Shown here in pieces: positions 656 to 26,344 of a stretch of 64,000 nt of DNA. Every line of letters starts with the position of its first letter. The stretch's first letter is position 1. The position numbers and the translations under genes are program-made. This DNA is from Escherichia phage SelmaRatti. The DNA is taken from the sequence record MZ501103. The stretch is one strand, 5' to 3'. The notes below the pieces were generated by a model. It had not been told where the DNA came from. It worked only from the letters and a program-made list of their open reading frames with translations, and made no database searches.

Positions 656-1149
656 AATTTTATTCTAAGTCTAGGAATTTCAGGCTCCTCTTGATGGACT
701 TGGTAAATAACCGGGCTATTATTTACTAGAATATAGCTTATATACGCTGGAACATAGGATAATACAAATGGATAAGGTACTTTAGCCACATAGCATTGGT
801 ATTTTCCGTTATAAATTCTAGCCGAATGCAAAACTTTAGAGGTGGCAACATCATAGAACGTAGTTTTCTTCCAGTTAATAAGATTTCCATCAGAATCTAT
901 AAATTGGCTACGCTTTGACCCAACTAATTGAGACAACATTGATATTCTACCTCTAATAGGATAGAGCTTGTACGGTAATTCCTTCCGTTTCTCAAATAGA
1001 ATAAGTCTACGTTGAGAAAAAGTGCCAGGCAACTTCCTGTTATCTAACACATATTTATTATATCTTGTTGTAATTACGGAATAATCACCTTCTTGCTCAA
1101 TTGATACAAACGCCCGTAAAGCATATACGGGCAATTTGAAATCAAGCAC
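652..1149 (-). CDS. hypothetical protein (165 aa)
   Basis: ORF in same orientation as flanking replication genes, start overlaps polymerase stop. Confidence 0.45.
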   Translation of the reverse strand: MLDFKLPVYALRAFVSIEQEGDYSVITTRYNKYVLDNRKLPGTFSQRRLILFEKRKELPYKLYPIRGRISMLSQLVGSKRSQFIDSDGNLINWKKTTFYDVATSKVLHSARIYNGKYQCYVAKVPYPFVLSYVPAYISYILVNNSPVIYQVHQEEPEIPRLRIKL

Positions 1150-4100
1150 CTAAAATCCTTTTCACATTATCCAGATCTTTACATACAGCAATAAACTTAT
1201 CATCCTTGTACTTGCTGTGGTCTGGATGCTCTTTATCCATTGCAGCTAACTTCTTATACTCGAAATCTGCATCGAGTAATACACCCTTAACATAACGAGT
1301 ATACTCATCATCATCAATACAAGCGATTGATGGATGCTGCTTCTTCATCTTACCACAAGAGTAGTCACGAGAACCTCCAGCTTCAGAATCAGAATCAATA
1401 CCAATCGGACAACCAGGAATACTGATACCACGGTCTTTCTGAATATTACGAATCAGGATTTCATTGTATTGGTCGATCAAATCCTCACGAACAATAGCAA
1501 CTACGGAGTCGTGAACTAGCATAACAATCTTCATCTCTTGTTCTAGGCCAAGAGAAATGATCTCATTATCTGCATCTACAGCACCTAAAAGGAGACTATC
1601 AGAAGAAGCAGACTGAATGATTGCGTTAAATCCAGAACGGATTTCTTCACCTTGAACACCACGGTCTTCGGAGTGGATATTATGCAGACGACGTTTACGA
1701 CCAAAGTGACTGTAGATAAATCCATGATTCTTGATCTGATCATGGCACTTATCAATCCAACGCTTAAGCTGCGAGAACTGACCGAAGTAAGTTTCAATGT
1801 ACTCTTTAGCATCTGCAACAGTACACTCTACAAACGGTTCGCCTGTCTTAGCAGCCTGCTCCAGAAGAGCTTCGTTAACAGAATGAGCTACTTTAGATGG
1901 GCCAGAACCATACAAAATACCAAAGGTAATTGCTTTAGCTGCTTGACGCAGAGCTGGGAATAGCTTTTTAACATCACGAGGTTCGCATTGGAGCTTAAAT
2001 ACCATGTGTGCGATGTTAGAGTGGAAGTCAGGGTATTTATCAGGTTCATTTCTCATGTTGATAAATACTTGTTGCATATTTCTATCACCAGATAGAACAG
2101 CAGCATAATAAACTTCCGCAGTTGTTAAGTCCCATGCAATTACACGGTATCCAGGTGGTGCAACTACACAACCCTTGATAATAGATTCATCACGAGGTAA
2201 CTGTTGAAGGTTCAGTTTACCAGAAGAACTCAGACGACCAGAGGTAGTCATGTGTTCATGGAAGCCAGTACGAATGCAACCATCAGCATCAATACTCAGT
2301 AGAATCTTCTCAACATAAGTAGAGATCAGCTTAGTCAGCTTACGAATCTCTAGCAGAGTTTTAGCAATTGGATGCTGCGTAGCCAGTTCATTTAGAGCTT
2401 CTGCATCTGTAGAGTCTGCTCCAGTATCCGTCAATTTACCTGTTGGAGTTAAGCCAACATAATCAAACAGAAGAACACGTAGCTGCTTAACAGAGTTAGG
2501 ATTAAACGCTTCATTCTGGTCTTTCTCTAGCTGAACGACTTCTGGATAAGTATACAGTTTCTCACGAGCCTTATTCAGGTTATGGGTTAACTGGTACTGT
2601 GCTTCTTTCAAGCGATCAATAGAAATTGGTACACCACGATCCTCAACACGCTGGAGAAATACACAACCAGGCATTAGAACATCATAATACAGACTACAAA
2701 GTTTTTCATTCTTCTCAATTTTTGGTAAGAAGAAATTGTGCAAACGTATGGTGGCATCTGTATCTTTACAGTTGTGAACTACACCAACTTTAGTTACAAA
2801 GTTATGATTATCTTTTACATCTATGCACCAACTGGTAGAGTAACCTCTTCTAGAAGCTGGAACTATCCAATCCTCAATCCCATACACTTCTGCGTAGTAG
2901 TACTTAGATGTTGAAAAATCCCAAGTTCCTATTCCTACTAAATGCTTGAATCTTTCTGGCACCTTGTAAGCCATAGAGCTATGCATATATGGAGCAATCA
3001 AAGGGAATAGTTCTTCATTATCTAATACAAAGAACTGATTATTTTCTCCATCGTTATGGTAGTGTGCTGTAACGCCTAGATTTTTACACCATTCTATGAA
3101 ATTTTGCTGCTCTTCTCTACAATCAGCAACTGTTCTAGACCAAATGCGTGCATTTCCTTGTGGCAGGGTACCAGCATCTTGATACCAAATAGCTAGTGCT
3201 TTTTCATCTAACCCTTCTAGATTTTTCTTAGTAATTTTTAACTTATACTTTGTAGTATTATCTCGCACCTCTAAGGTAGAGAATAAGTCAGAATACTCAG
3301 AGGTATATGGGAAACTATACGTATATGCTTTTTTATCTCCCTTTGTAGAAACACTAAGAGTTGGTGTTTCTACTTGAGAAGCTGCCTTAAAATCTAGATA
3401 CTCTTTATGCGCTTCTGACTGTGTCAGTTGTAGACCAGCGCCCCATTTATTTCTAGATACCAGAGCACCATCCCCAAATAGGGATGCCATTAATACTTGC
3501 TTACTATCAGATGGTAAAGCAATTTCTTCAGTTTGGATTTTATCCTGTCCTGGAATAATATCTTGTACTTCTATGTATCCATTCTGAGTTAATACCCTAT
3601 GGTCTGGTGTAAATACTGGACCATTAATAGTACCACTAGAGTTTCTTTTCTGAGATTTAACTACTAACTTCTTCCATTTTTTGGATTTATGTTCATTTTT
3701 ATACCATCCAGTAATAGGTTTGTTCTCAAATTGCCCAGTTGATTCGTTGAATGATACTACAGCTTCTGTAGATTTGGTACGAACAAGTTCCCCAATAGTC
3801 TTCCAATTCCCTGAAGCCATCTTAACTTGGGAATCGTGAGTAAGACATGCATAAGGCCACATAATATCAAACGGAATTAAATCATAGGTGAAATCTTCTT
3901 TCTTGATTTTATGTGCTTTGCAGTAATCATCTTTGAACTTATCTAGTTCGAAGTCATAGTCACCCATATCTGTATACTTCATTGCTAGAGATTTCAAGCC
4001 ATGAGTACCACGACGTTCATCTAGAACATAGTGCTGCAACATGGTATCATGGAGCCTGCGTTCTTTATGTGCTTTATCAAAGGTAAGTCCCAGATGGTAC

Positions 4101-4786
4101 TTATAAAAGTGCATATCAAACTTCAAGTTGTGAAAAACAATAGTGTGGTTTTCACTATCCAGAATTTTCTGGAGGTAATATACTGCAACCTCTGTGAGAC
4201 AATCAGAATCTATATATACACCCTGATACTCTTGGTGAGAAATAGAAACACCAAGCAAATAACCATCTCGACAGTATAGTGCTGAGGTTTCGGAGTCGAA
4301 TGCGATAGGTCCGATAACCATATTATACACCATCTTGATATATTCTTCCGCCTCGTCAGGGTCAGTAATAGGACGGTAATCACCAGCTTTTGCAATCTTC
4401 TCACGACCATTGATAATATCGTGGATATTCTCTACTGTTGCATCAAAAACTGGTTTCATTTCAGGCTTAAAGTGTAACTGGGCTGGGCTGATACTCGCAA
4501 TCCAGTTAGCATATCCATTATACTCTACACGTTTACCAGTATAGTCACCAATGCCTTTCTTACCTGCGAAGTACAGGAAAGGTTCAGCACCTACTAGTAT
4601 AACAAAATCATAATCATTCGGATCAAATGGGTTTTCCGGAGTCCCGATAGTAATATGCTTTTTGAGCAAACGACCGGATAACTTCTCGTTACACATATGG
4701 AATACATCAACTTCCTCGCCGTATAGCTGGAAATGTTTATCATAACGAGTGTTATTTAGAGCTTTATCAACTACTGCGATTTTCAA
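1142..4786 (-). CDS. family A DNA polymerase (T5-type) containing an in-frame intein
   Basis: Exo motif FDSETSAL, pol motif B RQAAKAITFGILYG, motif C VHDSV; 1214 aa, of which 359 aa are an intein, leaving 855 aa. Confidence 0.9.
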   Translation of the reverse strand: MKIAVVDKALNNTRYDKHFQLYGEEVDVFHMCNEKLSGRLLKKHITIGTPENPFDPNDYDFVILVGAEPFLYFAGKKGIGDYTGKRVEYNGYANWIASISPAQLHFKPEMKPVFDATVENIHDIINGREKIAKAGDYRPITDPDEAEEYIKMVYNMVIGPIAFDSETSALYCRDGYLLGVSISHQEYQGVYIDSDCLTEVAVYYLQKILDSENHTIVFHNLKFDMHFYKYHLGLTFDKAHKERRLHDTMLQHYVLDERRGTHGLKSLAMKYTDMGDYDFELDKFKDDYCKAHKIKKEDFTYDLIPFDIMWPYACLTHDSQVKMASGNWKTIGELVRTKSTEAVVSFNESTGQFENKPITGWYKNEHKSKKWKKLVVKSQKRNSSGTINGPVFTPDHRVLTQNGYIEVQDIIPGQDKIQTEEIALPSDSKQVLMASLFGDGALVSRNKWGAGLQLTQSEAHKEYLDFKAASQVETPTLSVSTKGDKKAYTYSFPYTSEYSDLFSTLEVRDNTTKYKLKITKKNLEGLDEKALAIWYQDAGTLPQGNARIWSRTVADCREEQQNFIEWCKNLGVTAHYHNDGENNQFFVLDNEELFPLIAPYMHSSMAYKVPERFKHLVGIGTWDFSTSKYYYAEVYGIEDWIVPASRRGYSTSWCIDVKDNHNFVTKVGVVHNCKDTDATIRLHNFFLPKIEKNEKLCSLYYDVLMPGCVFLQRVEDRGVPISIDRLKEAQYQLTHNLNKAREKLYTYPEVVQLEKDQNEAFNPNSVKQLRVLLFDYVGLTPTGKLTDTGADSTDAEALNELATQHPIAKTLLEIRKLTKLISTYVEKILLSIDADGCIRTGFHEHMTTSGRLSSSGKLNLQQLPRDESIIKGCVVAPPGYRVIAWDLTTAEVYYAAVLSGDRNMQQVFINMRNEPDKYPDFHSNIAHMVFKLQCEPRDVKKLFPALRQAAKAITFGILYGSGPSKVAHSVNEALLEQAAKTGEPFVECTVADAKEYIETYFGQFSQLKRWIDKCHDQIKNHGFIYSHFGRKRRLHNIHSEDRGVQGEEIRSGFNAIIQSASSDSLLLGAVDADNEIISLGLEQEMKIVMLVHDSVVAIVREDLIDQYNEILIRNIQKDRGISIPGCPIGIDSDSEAGGSRDYSCGKMKKQHPSIACIDDDEYTRYVKGVLLDADFEYKKLAAMDKEHPDHSKYKDDKFIAVCKDLDNVKRILGA
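2771..3847 (-). mobile_element. intein inside DNA polymerase (aa 314-672), with endonuclease-like insert
   Basis: Begins with Cys (…IMWPYA|CLTHDSQ), ends VVHN followed by Cys (HN|CKDTD); internal LFGDGAL motif; codons checked at both junctions. Confidence 0.75.
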
Positions 4787-4848
4787 ATTTAATCTCCTCT
4801 TGGTAAGTAAGTATAACTTCAGTGTTTCTTCTCTAACTTACCAATATA

Positions 4849-5739
4849 TTATACCAAATCTTTAAGCGATTCAGCAACTAAAATTTCAATACGTTTTGCT
4901 AACATATCAATCTCTTCTTTATTTAAGTCACCAGGGTCTTTACCTTCAGGCAGAAGAAAGTTAGCAATTACAGGTGTTAAACGCGTTTTTGTACGAATTA
5001 GCTTGGCCAATGCTTGTGCAGCTTTAGTACCAGAAGCATCATTATCTAGTAAGATAACAACAACTTTAACACCAGCAATAATATACGGACTGAACTTATC
5101 TGCAATGTTATCCGAAGTAAACTGATGTGTACCAAAGCAGCAAGAAGCATAGTCTATACCATTATCCTCTAGGTTCAGCATATCAAAGATACCTTCAACT
5201 AAAATAAGAACTGGAGTATTATATCGTACAGGAAAAATTGGCGGTGAAACTTGTTTTGGTTTTACTAAGTATTTAGGAGGGGCAGAACTGTTTATAGAAC
5301 GACCCAAAAATAGGATATTGCGTCCAACAGCATCTGTGATTGGGAATACAATTCTGCCTTCCCAGTTCTCTTGATGTTGGAAAGCAAAATACTTCTTCAA
5401 GGTCTTAGAACTGATACCTCGGAAATCACCTTCAAAAAGAAAGGCAGATTCTGGGATTGCAAGATTCGTAGATCCATTTCTAATCTCTGAAATCTTTTTA
5501 CGTACCTGCGATAGTCTTGGAGACTGTCGGTACTGAGTCTCATTAAAATAATGGTAAATGCTCGGTATACCTTTACCGAAGCCACAACTCAAGCAGTGCA
5601 TGACCCCTGACTCGGGGTCAATACGTAGACTTGGGTGTTTATCGTCATGATCTGGATTGAGGCAGCATATAAGAATATCCCCGCCTGTATCCTTATACTC
5701 AATTCCTTTTAGATCAAGTAACTCTGTTATTCTACTCAT
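4849..5739 (-). CDS. DNA primase (DnaG-like, zinc-binding + TOPRIM)
   Basis: CLNPDHDDKHPSLRIDPESGVMHCLSCGFGKG zinc motif; TOPRIM-like LVEGIFDMLNLED and VILLDNDASG. Confidence 0.8.
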   Translation of the reverse strand: MSRITELLDLKGIEYKDTGGDILICCLNPDHDDKHPSLRIDPESGVMHCLSCGFGKGIPSIYHYFNETQYRQSPRLSQVRKKISEIRNGSTNLAIPESAFLFEGDFRGISSKTLKKYFAFQHQENWEGRIVFPITDAVGRNILFLGRSINSSAPPKYLVKPKQVSPPIFPVRYNTPVLILVEGIFDMLNLEDNGIDYASCCFGTHQFTSDNIADKFSPYIIAGVKVVVILLDNDASGTKAAQALAKLIRTKTRLTPVIANFLLPEGKDPGDLNKEEIDMLAKRIEILVAESLKDLV

Positions 5740-7259
5740 ATATCACTGGCCTGTTCACCTGTTGAATTTTCAGCTTTGTCTTTCTTAGCACGTTTAGGTT
5801 GAGCCGACTTATCCTTCTCAATAGGGATAACGAACTCAGCTTCCATTTGAGATATATCTTCCATTGCTAGGTTGGTAGTGTTATCCATCCGCAAGGTTTC
5901 CCAGTTCATTTTAGGCATAAACTTCACGCTATCAGAAGAACGAGTCTTAACGAAGTCAAACATAATAGCACCTTGACCATTATCAGCTTTTGCAGCATTA
6001 AGATTAGCAGCCATGTCTGCGGAATCAAGAATCCCCTTTGACATACGTGTTCTACCGTCTTGATCGATCTGGTAAGGAGCTACACCAGCCACGTTATGTT
6101 TCTGGCAAATAGATTTGAAAGACGAGCTAACAACCATCTGTTCTTTCCAGTCATACATATCAATGGTTTTAGAATCTGGAAGTCGGGTTTGGTTAATATA
6201 GTCCAGTAAAGCTACTGTAACTTTATCCCCATATCTAGCAACTAATTTATTTAATTCTACGTCAACTGTTGTAATAGACAGCTCAGGATCATAAACAATA
6301 ATCATAGGAGTATGTAGCTCATACCCTTCTATTAGCTTACTTTCCATATCGTAGAAATCACTCATCTTAGCCATTGTGTACTGTTTAACGAAGTTATCGA
6401 AAAGCTCTTCACCACCGTTAAACATCCTGGCTCTAGTTCTGGCTAATCTCAACAGAGCTGCACCTTCTAGAGTATTATTACGCATTGCTAGTGCTGATAC
6501 ACCAGCTAACATGGCTAGATTACGTCTAAATACTTCATGTTCTTTCATCTCAATTGAGAAGTATGGAGCAATATCTCCATTCAAATATTGCTGAACCTGT
6601 ATGTTTGAACAGATAATGGATTTACCGGTACCACGCCAACCACCAAGCAGTAACGTTTCTGTGCGAGCTAAACCAATTTGAGCGTCGAACTCATTACAAA
6701 TACCAAGAGCGATTAAGTTCAGTTTGGTATCTTCTTCTCTCTGGAAAATACGCATGTTATCTGCGTTGAATACTTTTCCAGTATTCGTTACTTTCTCTTC
6801 TAATTTTAAGTGAAGGGAGGCAACTCGGTTAAGAATTTCTCCCTGATCCAGCATTGTTAAATCTTGAAGCACGTCTGTTTCTAGAAGCTTCAGGAATAAA
6901 TCCTGTGTATACTCGGCTTCTAGGACTTCAAGTGCCTGTTCCATGCTAACTTCTGGAATTTGAGTGTTAGCTAAGACGACTAGAGCTTGAGAAAGGCGGG
7001 CGTTCCTATTAGCCTCAAGCATCAGTGCGTCAATGGACGGCATTGTGTTATATTTTTTATAATAATTCTGGACGGCTTGGTAAATTGAGGAGAAAGCGTC
7101 ATTAAAATGATCTTTATGCAGTTTTGAGAATGTTTCCAATGCTATTTGCTTCTGTTCGGAAGCTAGAAGCATCTTCAACACTACAGCTTGCACGTTAAAC
7201 AAGGTCATTCTCCTTTGCACGCTTTCGTGCCTTCTAAATGCAAAAAGGGGAAGGAGCAT
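5736..7259 (-). CDS. replicative helicase (DnaB-like)
   Basis: Walker A GGWRGTGKS; length 507 aa; adjacent to primase; C-terminal tail ...NSTGEQASDI. Confidence 0.8.
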   Translation of the reverse strand: MLLPLFAFRRHESVQRRMTLFNVQAVVLKMLLASEQKQIALETFSKLHKDHFNDAFSSIYQAVQNYYKKYNTMPSIDALMLEANRNARLSQALVVLANTQIPEVSMEQALEVLEAEYTQDLFLKLLETDVLQDLTMLDQGEILNRVASLHLKLEEKVTNTGKVFNADNMRIFQREEDTKLNLIALGICNEFDAQIGLARTETLLLGGWRGTGKSIICSNIQVQQYLNGDIAPYFSIEMKEHEVFRRNLAMLAGVSALAMRNNTLEGAALLRLARTRARMFNGGEELFDNFVKQYTMAKMSDFYDMESKLIEGYELHTPMIIVYDPELSITTVDVELNKLVARYGDKVTVALLDYINQTRLPDSKTIDMYDWKEQMVVSSSFKSICQKHNVAGVAPYQIDQDGRTRMSKGILDSADMAANLNAAKADNGQGAIMFDFVKTRSSDSVKFMPKMNWETLRMDNTTNLAMEDISQMEAEFVIPIEKDKSAQPKRAKKDKAENSTGEQASDI

Positions 7260-22872: not shown

Positions 22873-22906
22873 AGGCCTGGGTATGAAAATGCTCGGGCCT
22901 TTTCTA
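22873..22906 (+). terminator. hairpin terminator upstream of nrdA
   Basis: GC-rich imperfect stem then ttttct; shares cgggccttttctat with the 44216 terminator. Confidence 0.4.
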
Positions 22907-22987
22907 TCAGAAAATTTTATTTGCCAAATGACTGAGAATAAAGTAAACTATTTCCTAAATCCTGATAACTATAAAAAGGAAAGCCAA

Positions 22988-25900
22988 ATGAGCCATCGCA
23001 TTGAAAAAGTAATTAAACGTGACGGTACTGTAGAAGACTTTGCTCCTGAAAAACTCAATGGTTGGGCAGAGTATGGTTGCAAAACAGTTGATGTAAGTTG
23101 GTCAGCCATTACTATGGCTGCTCAAAAAACCCTACCTAAAGGGGTTGTAGATTCCGACACTCTTATGGACGCATTAATTAAAGCTGCTGAAAGTCTTATC
23201 AAAGATAACCCAGCATACGATGTGCCAGCAAAGGAATTACGTCTTGCGCAAATGCGTAAGCGCCTTTATGACTCTTTCGAACCACCTTCTCTACGCTTCT
23301 TCCATGACCACATGGTTAGCGTAGGTACATGGGAAGACATGAGTGCATGGATTACCGATGAGCAATTTGAAGCTCTGAATCAGGTTATCGACCATGATCG
23401 TGACCGTCTTTTTACTAGTGGTGGGCTGAAGCAGTTCTTTGATAAGTATTCACGTCGTAACATAGCCACTGGTGAAATTTACGAAACCCCTCAATTCGCC
23501 TATATGGGTATGGCAATGGCGATGTTATCTCAACCTAACTGGACAATTCTAGATGCAATCGATCTCTACAATGCAATGTCGCTCCACAAGATCAACGTTC
23601 CTACGCCGCCATTGGTTGGCTTGCGCTCTAGTGACCGTGGATTTGCTAGTTGCTGCCTCGTGGATTCCACTGACACATTGGATTCAATCGACACAGCAGA
23701 GCACATCGTCTTCAAAATGGTCGCAGCCAGAGCGGGAATCGGGTATCATCTTGAAAGCAGATCAATTGCTGATCCGGTGCGAAATGGGGCATTCCCGCAT
23801 TCCGGAAAACTGCCATATTATCGACACATTGACCGCTCAGTAAAGGCCAATACTCAGCAAACTCGTGGTGGTTCTGCTACAGTGTCTTATCCATACTTCG
23901 ACCCTGAAATCATTCAATTGATGCAGGTTAAGCAACAACGTGCTACAGATGAGAATAAAATCGATAAGATGGATTATTCTCTGAGCTTTAACAATCTTTT
24001 GTTAAAACGTTATCTTAAAAACGAAGATATTACGCTAATGTCATACTTCTATGCTCCAGAAGTTCATGAAGCGTTTTATAGTGATGACGAGGCTAAATTT
24101 GAAGAAATCTACGTGGCAGCGGAGAAACGTGTGGCATCTCTTACAAAAATCGACCACGAAGGAAAAACAGTTCCAGCAGCTCCTAAAGTCTCTGCAAAAG
24201 AAATCCTAGATACTTGGCTACGTATCCGAATGGAAACAGGACGTATGTACGCTCACCACATCGGGGAATCTAATCGTCACGGTAACTTTCTTGATCCAAT
24301 CCGTATGACTAACCTTTGTGTAGCTCCAGAAACAAAAATTTTAACCAAAAATGGTAACATAGAGATTATTGATTTAGTTGGTAAAGAAGTAGAGATTTGG
24401 AACGGGCAAGAATGGTCAACAGTTATCCCTGCTAAAACTGGGGAAGCTCAGGAGTTGATGAAAATCACATTCTCTGATGGATCTACTATTGAATCTACTC
24501 TTTATCATAAGTTCTACCACCAGCCCAAATATGTAAGAGAGGATCGTAGTACCTCCTTCAAACAGGGTCTAGAAGAGGTACGAGCAGTAGACTTGCAAGT
24601 AGGTATGAAAATGCCTAAATTTAGTAATCCTATTGTAGATCATGGAAATATGGTACTAAAATCTCCTTATACTAACGGTTTCTTCACTGGAGATGGAACT
24701 TATGGAAGACATGGAGAACCTAAGCTGTACTTCTATGAAAAAGGAGGCAAACTACCATTAGTGGATAAAATTGACGCAAAGATTCAGGGAAGTGGATTAC
24801 TGGACAGCACAGGTAGACTGAGTTATATTGTTAAGTCTGATTTAATGCCGAAGTATTTTGTACCTGGCCCAGAATACACTATTGATAGCCGTATCAAATG
24901 GTTAGAGGGATATTTAGATGCAGATGGCTGCATACAGAAAAATGGCACAACCCCTAGTATTGTGGTTGCTTCGGCAGAGCCTGATTTTCTAAGTAAAGTG
25001 AAGGATTTGTTACTAGAATTGGGGATTACTAGCAAGATTATTTTAGGACGCCAAGAAGGTGACTACGAGTTACCAGATGGTACTGGTAGTAGTAGTAAAC
25101 TATACCACTGCAAGGAGACTAGTAGGCTTATTGTGGGGAGTAGTGGCTTCTGGAAACTTAAAGATTTAGGACTCTCTTTGGATAAAGAGAAACTCTTAAA
25201 CCTAACACGCCCCAATAGAGACGCAACCCGTTTTGTAACTGTAACTAACGTTGAGTTTACTGGTCGTATTAGTGATACCTATTGCTTTACAGAACCTAAA
25301 TTAAACTTGGGTGTATTTAATGGCATTTTAGCTGGTAACTGTGTAGAGATTACTCAGCCTACACGCCCGTTCCACCACATCACAGAGCTGTATAAGACAA
25401 AAGAGCAGCTTGATCAAATGAAGCCGGAGGATATTGGTGAAGTATCTCTGTGTAACTTAGGTGGTGTTGTACTTGGACGCATGGAATCTCTGGCTGAGTG
25501 GGAAAAAACTTGCTACATCCTTCTGAAATTCGTTGATACAATTATTGAAATTCAGGATTATCCGTTCCCAACTATGGAATATACGGCTAAGAAACGTCGT
25601 AATGTTGGTATTGGCCTGATGAACGCAGCAGGTGCAATGGCAGCAGAAGGTCTGGCTTATGAAGGTATTGAAGCCCGTAACTGGATTCACCGTGAGGCTG
25701 AAAAACTGTCTTACTTCCTGCATAAAGCCTCTGTACGCCTAGCTAAAGAACAGGGCGCATGTGAGTGGTTTGATCGTACTAAACCATCTAAAGGAATTCT
25801 GGTAATCGACACTTACAAGAAAACTGTTGATGAACTGGTATCCGTAGGTCTAGAAATGGATTGGGAATCTCTGCGTGCAGATATTCTGAAATACGGTATG

Positions 25901-26344
25901 CGTAACTCTGTTCTGACTGCGCAGATGCCTGGAGAAAGCTCTTCTGTACTATTGGGTGTTACCAACTCAATTGAGCCACCTCGTAAGATTGTATCTATCA
26001 AGGGTAGTGCAGTGAATAAAGTAATTGCAATTGCTCCAGGTGCAACCGATTGGGATACTCTCATGAGCTATAAACTGGCCTATGATATTGATCGCACTGA
26101 GTGGATCAAGTGGAACGCCGTTTACCAAAAATTCTTGAGTCAGTCATCAAGTTTCCAGATGTATTATGATTACTCTAAATTCGAGAATGAAATCATCCCT
26201 GGCCCAGTAGTAGTTCGTGACTTTATGACTGCGGTTAAGTATGGTATAAAAACCTGGTATTATGCTAACTTTAACACTGCGAATGGTGGAGGAGCTGGTG
26301 AAGAGGCGGCAACAGGTTGTGCATCAGGCGGTTGTCAGTTATAA
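22988..26344 (+). CDS. nrdA: ribonucleotide reductase large subunit (class Ia) with in-frame intein
   Basis: MSHRIEKVIKRDG matches NrdA N-terminus; C-terminal CxxC tail; RBS aaaaggaaag; upstream part of the 22883 ORF is a terminator/leader. Confidence 0.9.
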   Translation: MSHRIEKVIKRDGTVEDFAPEKLNGWAEYGCKTVDVSWSAITMAAQKTLPKGVVDSDTLMDALIKAAESLIKDNPAYDVPAKELRLAQMRKRLYDSFEPPSLRFFHDHMVSVGTWEDMSAWITDEQFEALNQVIDHDRDRLFTSGGLKQFFDKYSRRNIATGEIYETPQFAYMGMAMAMLSQPNWTILDAIDLYNAMSLHKINVPTPPLVGLRSSDRGFASCCLVDSTDTLDSIDTAEHIVFKMVAARAGIGYHLESRSIADPVRNGAFPHSGKLPYYRHIDRSVKANTQQTRGGSATVSYPYFDPEIIQLMQVKQQRATDENKIDKMDYSLSFNNLLLKRYLKNEDITLMSYFYAPEVHEAFYSDDEAKFEEIYVAAEKRVASLTKIDHEGKTVPAAPKVSAKEILDTWLRIRMETGRMYAHHIGESNRHGNFLDPIRMTNLCVAPETKILTKNGNIEIIDLVGKEVEIWNGQEWSTVIPAKTGEAQELMKITFSDGSTIESTLYHKFYHQPKYVREDRSTSFKQGLEEVRAVDLQVGMKMPKFSNPIVDHGNMVLKSPYTNGFFTGDGTYGRHGEPKLYFYEKGGKLPLVDKIDAKIQGSGLLDSTGRLSYIVKSDLMPKYFVPGPEYTIDSRIKWLEGYLDADGCIQKNGTTPSIVVASAEPDFLSKVKDLLLELGITSKIILGRQEGDYELPDGTGSSSKLYHCKETSRLIVGSSGFWKLKDLGLSLDKEKLLNLTRPNRDATRFVTVTNVEFTGRISDTYCFTEPKLNLGVFNGILAGNCVEITQPTRPFHHITELYKTKEQLDQMKPEDIGEVSLCNLGGVVLGRMESLAEWEKTCYILLKFVDTIIEIQDYPFPTMEYTAKKRRNVGIGLMNAAGAMAAEGLAYEGIEARNWIHREAEKLSYFLHKASVRLAKEQGACEWFDRTKPSKGILVIDTYKKTVDELVSVGLEMDWESLRADILKYGMRNSVLTAQMPGESSSVLLGVTNSIEPPRKIVSIKGSAVNKVIAIAPGATDWDTLMSYKLAYDIDRTEWIKWNAVYQKFLSQSSSFQMYYDYSKFENEIIPGPVVVRDFMTAVKYGIKTWYYANFNTANGGGAGEEAATGCASGGCQL
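24317..25339 (+). mobile_element. LAGLIDADG intein in NrdA (341 aa) at the catalytic Cys
   Basis: Exteins join to MTNL|CVEITQP (conserved NLCxEI); intein starts CVAPETKIL, ends ...GILAGN|C; LEGYLDADGCIQ motif. Confidence 0.8.

What the first reader, a model, noticed from the sequence alone, without database searches (positions are those of the whole stretch)
2771..3847. Intein with endonuclease-like insert inside the DNA polymerase
A 359-aa in-frame insertion starts with Cys and ends His-Asn followed by Cys, splitting ...DIMWPYA from CKDTDATIRL. Removing it leaves a polymerase of the expected T5 size. Polymerase inteins in T5-like phages are uncommon and can serve as markers or engineering parts.
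Basis: partly seen in the sequence, partly recalled or inferred. Interest (0 to 1): 0.6.

Follow-up and report, generated by a model that had tools for sequence, protein, structure and literature searches.

The report
Intein inside T5-type DNA polymerase
The 359-codon insert is a genuine self-splicing intein with a built-in homing endonuclease, sitting in the proofreading active site of a T5-like phage DNA polymerase; it is an ordinary kind of selfish element, rare in this phage group, and this copy carries a mutation that probably kills its endonuclease.

Summary
Window 2771..3847 (minus strand) is an in-frame 359-aa insert, Cys1...His-Asn then Cys+1, in a 1214-aa family A DNA polymerase. Removing it leaves 855 aa, 99.1% identical to T5 polymerase with no gaps.

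It is a class-1-type intein: a Hint splicing domain carrying an I-SceI-like LAGLIDADG endonuclease. The AF2 model has pLDDT 92, and its fold matches the TliVMA, PI-PfuI and PI-SceI inteins, I-SceI and the Mtu RecA mini-intein. It splits the Exo III motif (Y-A|C-K-D) of the 3'-5' exonuclease.

About half of its nearest full-length homologues sit at the same site in very diverse family A polymerases, so it belongs to a large allelic intein family.

Among T5-like phages it is rare: 5 phages, in 7 of 505 records. It has moved horizontally: the intein is 97.5% identical between genera whose exteins are 88-90% identical.

Empty sites always encode Ala at +1. Intein-bearing alleles have Cys, so invasion co-converts A314C.

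This copy alone has D225A at the residue equivalent to I-SceI D145, and I-SceI D145A is cleavage-dead. It is therefore predicted to splice but not to home.

It is a new member of a known kind, of modest interest. A second intein lies in NrdA at 24317..25339.

The parts
1142..4786 (-). Polymerase precursor ORF (1214 aa, TTG start, 138.4 kDa): N-extein + intein + C-extein
   Evidence: ORF. (Pfam DNA_pol_A_exo1 at 137-313, DNA_pol_A at 728-1119). (masses).
3848..4786 (-). N-extein, polymerase residues 1-313, ending ...DIMWPYA. Contains the 3'-5' exonuclease motifs up to Tyr312-Ala313 of Exo III.
   Evidence: The alignment to Klenow places 'wpyackdtdatirlh' on 'gryaaedadvtlqlh'.
2771..3847 (-). 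Intein, 359 aa (40.8 kDa), Cys1 ... His358-Asn359
3533..3847 (-). N-terminal lobe of the Hint splicing domain (about intein aa 1-105; boundary approximate). Block A is Cys1 (3845-3847). Block B is Thr80 (3608-3610) and His83 (3599-3601).
   Evidence: TIGR01445 intein_Nterm scores 28.7 bits against a cut-off of 24.5. The family profile matches the Mtu RecA mini-intein over positions 1-110 at 6.8e-12. Conservation.
2918..3532 (-). I-SceI-like LAGLIDADG homing endonuclease domain (about intein aa 106-310; boundaries approximate). Motif 1 is LMASLFGDG with Asp126 (3470-3472). Motif 2 is LAIWYQDAG with Asp224 (3176-3178) and Ala225.
   Evidence: PF03161 scores 33.8 bits against a cut-off of 25. The profile matches I-SceI at E=2e-27 over positions 94-309. 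Foldseek against I-SceI gives TM 0.67.
3173..3175 (-). Codon GCT = Ala225, where all other copies have GAT = Asp. This is the position equivalent to the I-SceI catalytic residue Asp145.
   Evidence: Gostya9, smaug, K36 and metagenome L040 all have Asp. (99 D, 5 N, 1 V, 1 A in 106 family members; the A is this window). (alignment to I-SceI FMDDG). (I-SceI D145A is cleavage-dead).
2771..2917 (-). C-terminal lobe of the Hint domain (about intein aa 311-359). Block F is W-C341-I-D-V-K-D-N-H348-N-F. Block G is V-G-V-V-H358-N359.
   Evidence: conservation. (the PF14890 match runs to residue 359). (strands 316-358 modelled with high confidence).
2768..2770 (-). +1 extein codon TGT = Cys, the splice-junction nucleophile. 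It is Ala (GCN) in every intein-less allele examined.
   Evidence: In IMG/VR there are 0 intein-less sites with Cys and 34 with Ala.
1142..2770 (-). C-extein (mature polymerase residues 314-855, plus stop), starting CKDTDATIRL. Contains Asp316 of Exo III and the whole polymerase domain.

Best explanation
The insert is a mobile class-1-type intein translated as part of the T5-type DNA polymerase.

Inferred splicing pathway (from residues, not assayed):
1. The Hint domain folds.
2. Cys1 makes an N-S acyl shift, assisted by Thr80 and His83.
3. The N-extein is passed to Cys+1.
4. Asn359 cyclises, helped by His358, and releases the 40.8-kDa intein.
5. An S-N shift leaves a normal peptide bond.

The product is a 97.6-kDa, 855-aa polymerase whose Exo III motif reads Y-A-C-K-D instead of the intein-less Y-A-A-K-D.

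The intein sits inside the Exo III motif, so the unspliced precursor should lack a correctly assembled proofreading site. Splicing is therefore effectively obligatory for the phage.

The central I-SceI-like LAGLIDADG domain is the mobility engine of the element. In mixed infections it would cut the conserved intein-less sequence around ...TGGCCNTAYGCT|GCNAAAGAYAC.... Repair from the intein-bearing genome would then copy in the intein plus a very short flank, from position -1 to +3, which includes the obligatory Ala-to-Cys codon change.

This spread is visible in the data. The same intein (97-98% identical) lies in Tequintavirus and Epseptimavirus polymerases that are only 88-90% identical.

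The copy in this window has a unique Asp225-to-Ala change at the metal-binding residue of the second LAGLIDADG motif. It is most likely still a splicing intein but no longer an active homing endonuclease, which is an early decay stage of the homing cycle.
For: Shown by computation:
- Exact in-frame boundaries and an extein-only protein of 855 aa, 99.1% identical to T5 polymerase.
- Clean absence from relatives (36 empty sites).
- Domain hits: TIGR01445 above its cut-off and PF03161 above its cut-off.
- 1771 homologues at E<=1e-3. Nearly all of the best 150 listed match the whole insert inside a larger protein, and 106 of them have Cys or Ser at position 1 and Asn at the end. 47 of 105 lie at the Y-x|C-x-D site.
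- Hosts are confirmed as family A polymerases, with the intein between the exonuclease and polymerase domains.
- Conservation across 106 members: C1 106/106, T80 105/106, H83 106/106, N359 106/106.
- AF2 model pLDDT 92.2, pTM 0.87.
- Foldseek: TliVMA intein 3.6e-13, PI-PfuI, PI-SceI, I-SceI TM 0.67, Mtu RecA mini-intein TM 0.61.
- Exo III placement from the Klenow alignment.
- Horizontal transfer: the intein is 97.5% identical between this window and smaug, against 88.0% and 89.6% for the exteins. Beyond position +11, smaug's flank is native Epseptimavirus sequence.
- The +1 codon is TGT in 4/4 intein-bearing alleles and GCN in 36/36 empty alleles.
- D225A is unique to this window: the four other T5-type sequences compared residue by residue (Gostya9, smaug, K36, L040) have Asp.
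- The position is equivalent to I-SceI D145, and I-SceI D145A is reported as completely defective in cleavage (PMC3928301).

Inferred: the four chemical steps of splicing, the cleavage site, and the loss of endonuclease activity.
Against: - No experiment shows splicing or cleavage.
- Two curated splicing-domain models fall below their cut-offs for this sequence: PF14890 scores 23.5 against 35.8, and TIGR01443 scores 13.2 against 15.6.
- Block F position 4 is Cys341, not the Asp usual in class-1 inteins. Block A has Ser12 where 86 of 106 relatives have Asp.
- Differences between intein copies are about half non-synonymous, against about one in ten for the exteins. The element is therefore under relaxed constraint and could be decaying more broadly.
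- D225A rests on a single nucleotide (GAT to GCT) and could be a sequencing error.
- The neighbouring Asp224 might retain some activity.
Confidence: 0.7

Rival explanations
1. The element is a fully active mobile intein. The Ala225 copy still cleaves or nicks DNA, because Asp224 or the first active site compensates, or because the A is a sequencing error. On this view it is not a decaying copy.
For: Asp224 is adjacent and conserved in 105/106 family members. Motif 1 Asp126 is intact. Six family members lack Asp at this position yet persist: 5 have Asn and 1 has Val. The difference is a single nucleotide.
Against: The equivalent I-SceI D145A substitution abolishes cleavage even after 12 h. All four other T5-type sequences compared and 99 of 106 family members keep Asp. 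This copy also carries about six other private amino-acid changes, consistent with relaxed selection.
Confidence: 0.15
2. The insert is a fixed, non-splicing domain insertion: a degenerate intein or intein-like module that stays in the mature polymerase.
For: PF14890 and TIGR01443 score below their curated cut-offs. Block F:4 is unusual (Cys) and block A has Ser12. The non-synonymous to synonymous ratio is relaxed.
Against: All residues needed for the four splicing steps are intact and invariant or nearly so in the family: C1, T80, H83, H358, N359, C+1. The +1 codon is Cys only when the insert is present, which is what a splicing requirement predicts. A 41-kDa insert between Ala313 and residue 314 would split the Y-x-x-x-D Exo III motif of an essential replicase. 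The insert is mobile between genera.
Confidence: 0.04
3. The insert spread among T5-like phages by ordinary homologous recombination in co-infections, not by endonuclease-driven homing. On this view the endonuclease has long been irrelevant in this clade.
For: T5-like genomes are mosaic and recombine readily (PMC10644984). The intein is rare, at 5 of about 500 genomes, which is not what an efficient drive would leave. One copy already has a dead-looking active site.
Against: The co-converted flank is extremely short, from position -1 to +3 and at most +11 in smaug. That fits break repair at the insertion point better than random crossovers. The other four copies compared residue by residue keep both catalytic Asp residues. 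The intein is far more similar across genera than its flanks.
Confidence: 0.1

Closest known systems
Endonuclease-bearing inteins with solved structures: PI-SceI (yeast VMA1), PI-PfuI, and the TliVMA and PhoVMA inteins
   Same: They share the bipartite architecture: a Hint splicing domain interrupted by a two-motif LAGLIDADG endonuclease. The whole-chain Foldseek matches are the best hits, at 3.6e-13 to 6.6e-09. Like this insert, they are inserted in a conserved catalytic motif of an essential enzyme.
   Different: Sequence identity is only 10-14%. The host proteins differ (V-ATPase, RNR). The endonuclease here belongs to the I-SceI branch (PF03161) rather than the PI-SceI type, and the whole-chain TM scores are low (0.3) because the two domains are oriented differently.
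I-SceI (yeast mitochondrial group I intron endonuclease; Pfam LAGLIDADG_2)
   Same: The endonuclease domain is clearly homologous. The family profile matches I-SceI at E=2e-27 with both motifs aligned: LGDG to LGDA, and WY-DDG to WFMDDG. The structural TM is 0.67.
   Different: I-SceI is free-standing and encoded in an intron, whereas this domain is embedded in a Hint domain. The window copy has Ala at the I-SceI Asp145 position, mimicking the engineered dead mutant D145A.
Allelic inteins at the Exo III motif of other family A DNA polymerases (unnamed metagenomic proteins P0003, P0004, P0006-P0008, P0016 and others)
   Same: They share the insertion point Y-[A/G/S] | C-x-D, the same domain order and the same length. 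Identity to this intein is 30-50%. 47 of the 105 nearest full-length homologues are at this site.
   Different: The host polymerases are very diverse, and many carry an N-terminal uracil-DNA-glycosylase-like domain. 37 of 106 family members (not only the polymerase-hosted ones) end in Ser-Asn rather than His-Asn. These proteins have no published description that I could find.
The same intein in Escherichia phage Gostya9, Salmonella phages smaug, Kenya-K36, -K42 and -K44, and metagenome contig ERZ507075 NODE-2206
   Same: The intein is 95-98% identical at the same site with the same +1 Cys.
   Different: The copies compared residue by residue (Gostya9, smaug, K36, the metagenome contig) have Asp225, whereas the window has Ala225. 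The Gostya9, smaug and K36 records I opened annotate the gene only as 'DNA polymerase', with no intein feature.

Membership tests
Intein (Hint-domain protein-splicing element, class 1) | In-frame insertion in a host protein, precisely absent from orthologues, with the flanks rejoining into the conserved host sequence | tested here: met
   The extein-only protein is 855 aa, 99.1% identical to T5 polymerase with no gaps. About 498 of 505 records lack the insert. 36 empty sites were aligned.
Intein (Hint-domain protein-splicing element, class 1) | Block A nucleophile Cys or Ser at position 1 | tested here: met
   Cys1. It is invariant in 106/106 family members.
Intein (Hint-domain protein-splicing element, class 1) | Block B T-x-x-H | tested here: met
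   Thr80-Pro-Asp-His83. T is present in 105/106 and H in 106/106.
Intein (Hint-domain protein-splicing element, class 1) | Block G penultimate His and terminal Asn, followed by Cys, Ser or Thr at +1 | tested here: met
   His358-Asn359, then Cys+1. Asn is present in 106/106. The +1 Cys occurs only in intein-bearing alleles.
Intein (Hint-domain protein-splicing element, class 1) | Block F position 4 Asp (usual in class 1) | tested here: not met
   Cys341 occupies this position. The family has 94 Cys and 12 Asp here. The class-3 W-C-T triplet is also absent: B:12 is Val85, G:5 is Val357, and Cys1 is present. I therefore file it as class-1-like with an atypical F:4. The block numbering is from my own knowledge of intein nomenclature.
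Intein (Hint-domain protein-splicing element, class 1) | Curated profile thresholds for the splicing domain | tested here: inconclusive
   TIGR01445 N-terminal region scores 28.7 against 24.5 (passes). PF14890 scores 23.5 against 35.8 and TIGR01443 scores 13.2 against 15.6 (both below). The relatives P0008 and P0047 pass PF14890 (36.5 and 41.2 bits), and P0004 at 35.6 bits is just under the 35.8 cut-off.
Intein (Hint-domain protein-splicing element, class 1) | Hint fold | tested here: met
   The model has pLDDT 92.2. Foldseek matches the Mtu RecA and Ssp DnaB mini-inteins and whole endonuclease-bearing inteins. The profile matches PI-MtuI at 6.8e-12.
Intein (Hint-domain protein-splicing element, class 1) | Actual protein splicing (ligated exteins plus free intein) | not testable with these tools
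   This needs protein analysis. Predicted sizes are 138.4 kDa going to 97.6 + 40.8 kDa.
LAGLIDADG homing endonuclease, I-SceI branch (Pfam PF03161) | Profile match above the curated cut-off, and the fold | tested here: met
   PF03161 scores 33.8 against 25. The family profile matches I-SceI at 2e-27. TM is 0.67 to 1r7m_A.
LAGLIDADG homing endonuclease, I-SceI branch (Pfam PF03161) | Two LAGLIDADG motifs in one chain, each ending in a catalytic acidic residue | tested here: not met
   Motif 1 Asp126 is present. Motif 2 has Ala225 where I-SceI has Asp145 and 99 of 106 relatives have Asp. It is a member by descent, but predicted catalytically defective.
LAGLIDADG homing endonuclease, I-SceI branch (Pfam PF03161) | Site-specific cleavage of the intein-less allele, and homing | not testable with these tools
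   There is only indirect support for past mobility: the intein is 97.5% identical across genera against 88-90% for the exteins, and the co-conversion tract is very short.
Family A DNA polymerase of the T5 type (host protein) | 3'-5' exonuclease and polymerase domains, and collinearity with T5 gp D9 | tested here: met
   PF01612 at 8.4e-33 and PF00476 at 2.1e-65. 847 of 855 residues are identical to T5 polymerase. Gene order helicase-primase-polymerase-helicase is as in T5.

The most novel reading that the evidence does not exclude
The intein may be more than a parasite. With three cysteines at the splice centre (Cys1, Cys+1 and the family-conserved block-F Cys341), splicing could be redox- or condition-gated. 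The phage would then delay assembly of the polymerase's proofreading site until a particular stage of infection. A weaker version: the Ala225 copy is a domesticated, non-cutting DNA-binding module. Nothing here excludes either reading, and nothing here supports them beyond the unusual Cys at block F:4.
Probability: 0.05. Interest if true: 0.6.

Novelty: new member of a known kind. Interest (0 to 1): 0.3.

Why it matters
- Annotation: six T5-like sequences (this window plus five GenBank phages) carry a 1214-aa 'DNA polymerase', and the three records I opened have no intein feature. Length-based or phylogenetic comparisons of polA in Demerecviridae will be distorted unless the 1077 nt are removed.
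- Biology: the set of near-identical copies, four with Asp225 compared here and one with Ala225, is a natural matched pair for testing the homing cycle in a tractable virulent coliphage system.
- Invasion cost: invasion forces an Ala-to-Cys change inside the Exo III motif, so the cost of invasion to proofreading can be measured.
- Wider family: the Exo III site of family A polymerases appears to be a heavily used intein landing site across uncultured phages.
- None of this changes how inteins are understood.

Tried and rejected
- Single-sequence phmmer of the insert against PDB sequences gave no hit at E<=1. Only the family profile reached I-SceI and the mini-inteins.
- The word-indexed protein search returned only 2 relatives. 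The exhaustive representative search was needed.
- IMG/VR holds no copy of this intein and no intein-less site with Cys at +1.
- The exact precursor sequence is not in the 15-billion-protein collection, so I could not name the source phage. The nearest records are Salmonella phages SP01 and Kenya-K36, at about 94-96% identity.
- Seven literature searches found no paper describing an intein in a T5-like polymerase. The Gostya9 genome paper is not held.
- PolA inteins in general are mentioned for bacteria in PMC4760082.
- The phiCbK and crAss-like papers turned out to concern other host genes.
- I rejected a group I intron with an in-frame ORF, because one frame is continuous, Hint blocks lie at both ends, and the residue at +1 tracks the insert.
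- I rejected an assembly artefact, because five independent isolates and one metagenome contig have the insert at the same site.
- I rejected a class 3 intein, because Cys1 is present and there is no W-C-T triplet.
- I could not measure distances between Cys1, Cys341 and Asn359, because model coordinates are not exposed.
Full report
**Observation.** The window's first large gene is ORF 1142..4786 on the minus strand. It has a TTG start and encodes 1214 aa. Pfam places a family A 3'-5' exonuclease domain at residues 137-313 and a family A polymerase domain at 728-1119. A LAGLIDADG_2 match and a sub-threshold Intein_splicing match lie between them. The stretch 2771..3847 translates without a stop into 359 aa, CLTHDSQV...VGVVHN. 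I checked the boundary codons on the raw sequence: Cys1 is 3845-3847, His358 is 2774-2776, Asn359 is 2771-2773 and Cys+1 is 2768-2770. Removing the 359 residues leaves 855 aa. These align to T5 DNA polymerase (NC_005859, 71097-73664) with 847/855 identities and no gap. An open frame of that length has a chance probability of about 6e-13 at this composition.

**Is it an insertion?** A megablast of the gene against 50,697 phage records finds 505 T5-like records. Only 7 of them cover the whole query. They represent five phages: Salmonella phages Kenya-K36, -K42 and -K44, Escherichia phage Gostya9, and Salmonella phage smaug. The others match in two pieces and span 2566-2568 nt, so they lack exactly this stretch. 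The Gostya9, smaug and K36 records call the 1214-aa product simply 'DNA polymerase'. A metagenome contig (L040) adds a sixth copy.

**What it is.**
- NCBIfam's intein N-terminal model passes its cut-off, at 28.7 against 24.5 bits. The C-terminal model is just below, at 13.2 against 15.6.
- PF03161 passes at 33.8 against 25. PF14890 spans residues 10-359 but scores 23.5 against 35.8.
- An exhaustive HMMER search of 1.84 billion representative proteins gives 1771 hits at E<=1e-3. Nearly all of the best 150 listed match the whole 1-359 span embedded in a larger protein.
- In a 106-sequence alignment of these inserts, Cys1, His83 and Asn359 are invariant and Thr80 is present in 105/106. Position 358 is His in 57 and Ser in 37. 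The two LAGLIDADG motifs are G-D126-G and W-Y-x-D224-D225-G.
- An AlphaFold2 model built on 21 of these sequences has mean pLDDT 92.2 and pTM 0.87.
- Foldseek against the PDB returns endonuclease-bearing inteins first: TliVMA at 3.6e-13, then PI-PfuI, PI-SceI and PhoVMA. I-SceI matches the middle domain (TM 0.67, rmsd 3.4 Å). The Mtu RecA and Ssp DnaB mini-inteins match the splicing domain.
- A profile of the family hits I-SceI at E=2e-27 and PI-MtuI at 6.8e-12.
- The insert is therefore a Hint splicing domain interrupted by an I-SceI-type LAGLIDADG endonuclease.

**Where it sits.** The alignment of the extein-only protein to Klenow fragment puts 'WPYA-C-KDTDATIRLH' on 'GRYA-A-EDADVTLQLH'. That is the Exo III motif Y-x-x-x-D; in Klenow these are Tyr497 and Asp501, which I state from established knowledge of this enzyme. 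The intein lies between Ala313 and residue 314, inside the proofreading active site. The same landing site dominates the family. 47 of the 105 closest full-length homologues are flanked by Y-[A/G/S] | C-x-D. Pfam confirms that six sampled hosts are family A polymerases with the intein between the exonuclease and polymerase domains, several with an N-terminal UDG-like domain. The nearest relatives (P0003 at 50%, P0004 at 43%, P0001, P0005 and L041 at about 41-45%) are diverged T5-like polymerases with the intein at the identical position. Other family members sit in UDG-family-4-like, dCMP-deaminase and cytidylyltransferase proteins.

**Mobility.** At the DNA level the intein of this window is 97.5% identical to that of smaug (genus Epseptimavirus). 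The N- and C-exteins are 88.0% and 89.6% identical. The same pattern holds for every pair that includes smaug. I aligned 36 empty sites: 34 IMG/VR loci, T5 and Baret.
- The +1 codon is GCN (Ala) in 36/36 empty sites and TGT (Cys) in 4/4 intein-bearing alleles.
- Position -1 is T in 34/36 empty sites and A in 4/4 intein-bearing alleles.
- From +12 onward, smaug's flank is the native Epseptimavirus sequence.
- IMG/VR holds 34 sites reading WPYA-A-KDTDA and none reading WPYA-C-KDTDA.

The element has therefore crossed genus boundaries, carrying only a few flanking nucleotides. These include the Cys codon it needs for splicing, as expected for break repair at the insertion point. One consequence is that the mature polymerase of intein-bearing phages carries A314C inside Exo III.

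**State of this copy.** Gostya9, smaug, K36 and the metagenome copy all read W-Y-Q-D-D-G. This window reads W-Y-Q-D-A-G, with GCT against GAT at 3173-3175. In the 106-member family the position is Asp in 99, Asn in 5, Val in 1 and Ala only here. The profile alignment puts it on the second Asp of I-SceI 'WFMDDG', which counts to Asp145 in chain 1r7m_A. [quoted passage not shown] D44N/D145A is used as a catalytically inactive binding module (PMC3258161). Changes private to this window are K67, I109, K134, A225, R244 and I328, plus V259 among the isolates. Codon differences among intein copies are roughly half non-synonymous (for example 11 synonymous to 13 non-synonymous). In the exteins the ratio is about 6:1 to 16:1 synonymous to non-synonymous (for example 222:35 and 106:8). 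All splicing residues are intact. The most likely reading is a splicing-competent intein whose endonuclease has just been inactivated.

**Mechanism, marked by status.**
- Shown: the architecture, the boundaries, residue conservation, the insertion site, the distribution, horizontal transfer, and the D225A change.
- Inferred from the established chemistry of class 1 inteins: the N-S shift at Cys1, transesterification to Cys+1, Asn359 cyclisation and the S-N shift.
- Inferred: the unspliced precursor lacks proofreading function, the endonuclease targets the empty Exo III-coding sequence, and Ala225 abolishes cutting.
- An oddity: block F position 4 is Cys341 (Cys in 94/106) rather than the usual Asp. 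The class-3 hallmarks are absent, so I treat it as class-1-like with an atypical F:4.

**Comparison and novelty.** The element is the same kind of thing as PI-SceI, PI-PfuI and the VMA inteins, with an I-SceI-branch endonuclease. Inteins in replication proteins at catalytic motifs are the rule (PMC4760082). I found no publication describing an intein in a T5-like polymerase, and the three records I opened do not annotate it. It is a new, unannotated member of a known kind, and not a new mechanism. Predicted products are a 138.4-kDa precursor, 97.6-kDa polymerase and a 40.8-kDa intein.

**Seen in passing.** The same window carries a second intein. The class Ia ribonucleotide reductase large subunit (22883..26344, plus strand) is 1153 aa. 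It has a 341-aa in-frame insert at 24317..25339...IRMTNL | CVAPETKILT...GILAGN | CVEITQ. The insert has a LAGLIDADG_3 domain and passes TIGR01445 at 34.0 bits. It is present in only 4 of 445 related records: Kenya-K36, Kenya-K42 and SP3 (GenBank and RefSeq copies).

Noticed in passing
window 24317..25339 (+), inside ORF 22883..26344: There is a second intein in the class Ia ribonucleotide reductase large subunit (NrdA, 1153 aa). It is a 341-aa in-frame insert...DPIRMTNL | CVAPETKILT ... GVFNGILAGN | CVEITQPTRP, at the N-L|C-x-E catalytic-cysteine motif. It ends Gly-Asn rather than His-Asn. It carries a LAGLIDADG_3 domain, and TIGR01445 scores 34.0 bits against a cut-off of 24.5. Only 4 of 445 related phage records carry it: Kenya-K36, Kenya-K42 and SP3 (GenBank and RefSeq copies).
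   Followed up: partly
window 2825..2827 (-), intein residue Cys341: Block F position 4 of the polymerase intein is Cys, and it is Cys in 94 of 106 family members and Asp in 12. Cys at F:4 is otherwise the hallmark of class 3 inteins, but this family keeps Cys1 and lacks the Trp and Thr partners. With Cys1 and Cys+1, this puts three cysteines at the splice centre. Its significance is unknown.
   Followed up: partly
window 4787..5739 / 5736..7259 (-): The primase (4849..5739) and the DnaB-like helicase (5736..7259) overlap directly. The HNH homing endonuclease gene that T5 (hegJ), Gostya9 (F-TflVIII) and Baret carry between these two genes is absent here, as it is in smaug and Kenya-K36.
   Followed up: no
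representative proteins P0006, P0007, P0008, P0016 (not in the window): Many metagenomic family A polymerases that carry the allelic Exo III-site intein also have an N-terminal uracil-DNA-glycosylase-superfamily domain. Related inteins sit in free-standing UDG-like and dCMP-deaminase proteins, always just before a Cys of a conserved motif: N-x-V-K|C-R-P, and |C-x-H-A-E.
   Followed up: partly
phage database records: Records labelled Campylobacter phage C13 (MG065692) and Listeria phage LM 4-14-1 (OR848434, 6.5 kb) match T5-like polymerase or nrdA sequence at 95-98% identity. This suggests mislabelled hosts or contaminating T5-like phage sequence in those entries.
   Followed up: no
L003 (Kenya-K36) compared with the window: Kenya-K36 shares both inteins (polymerase and NrdA) with this window, but it is only about 94-96% identical overall. 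The window comes from an undeposited or held-out relative. The exact precursor protein is not in the 15-billion-protein collection.
   Followed up: partly
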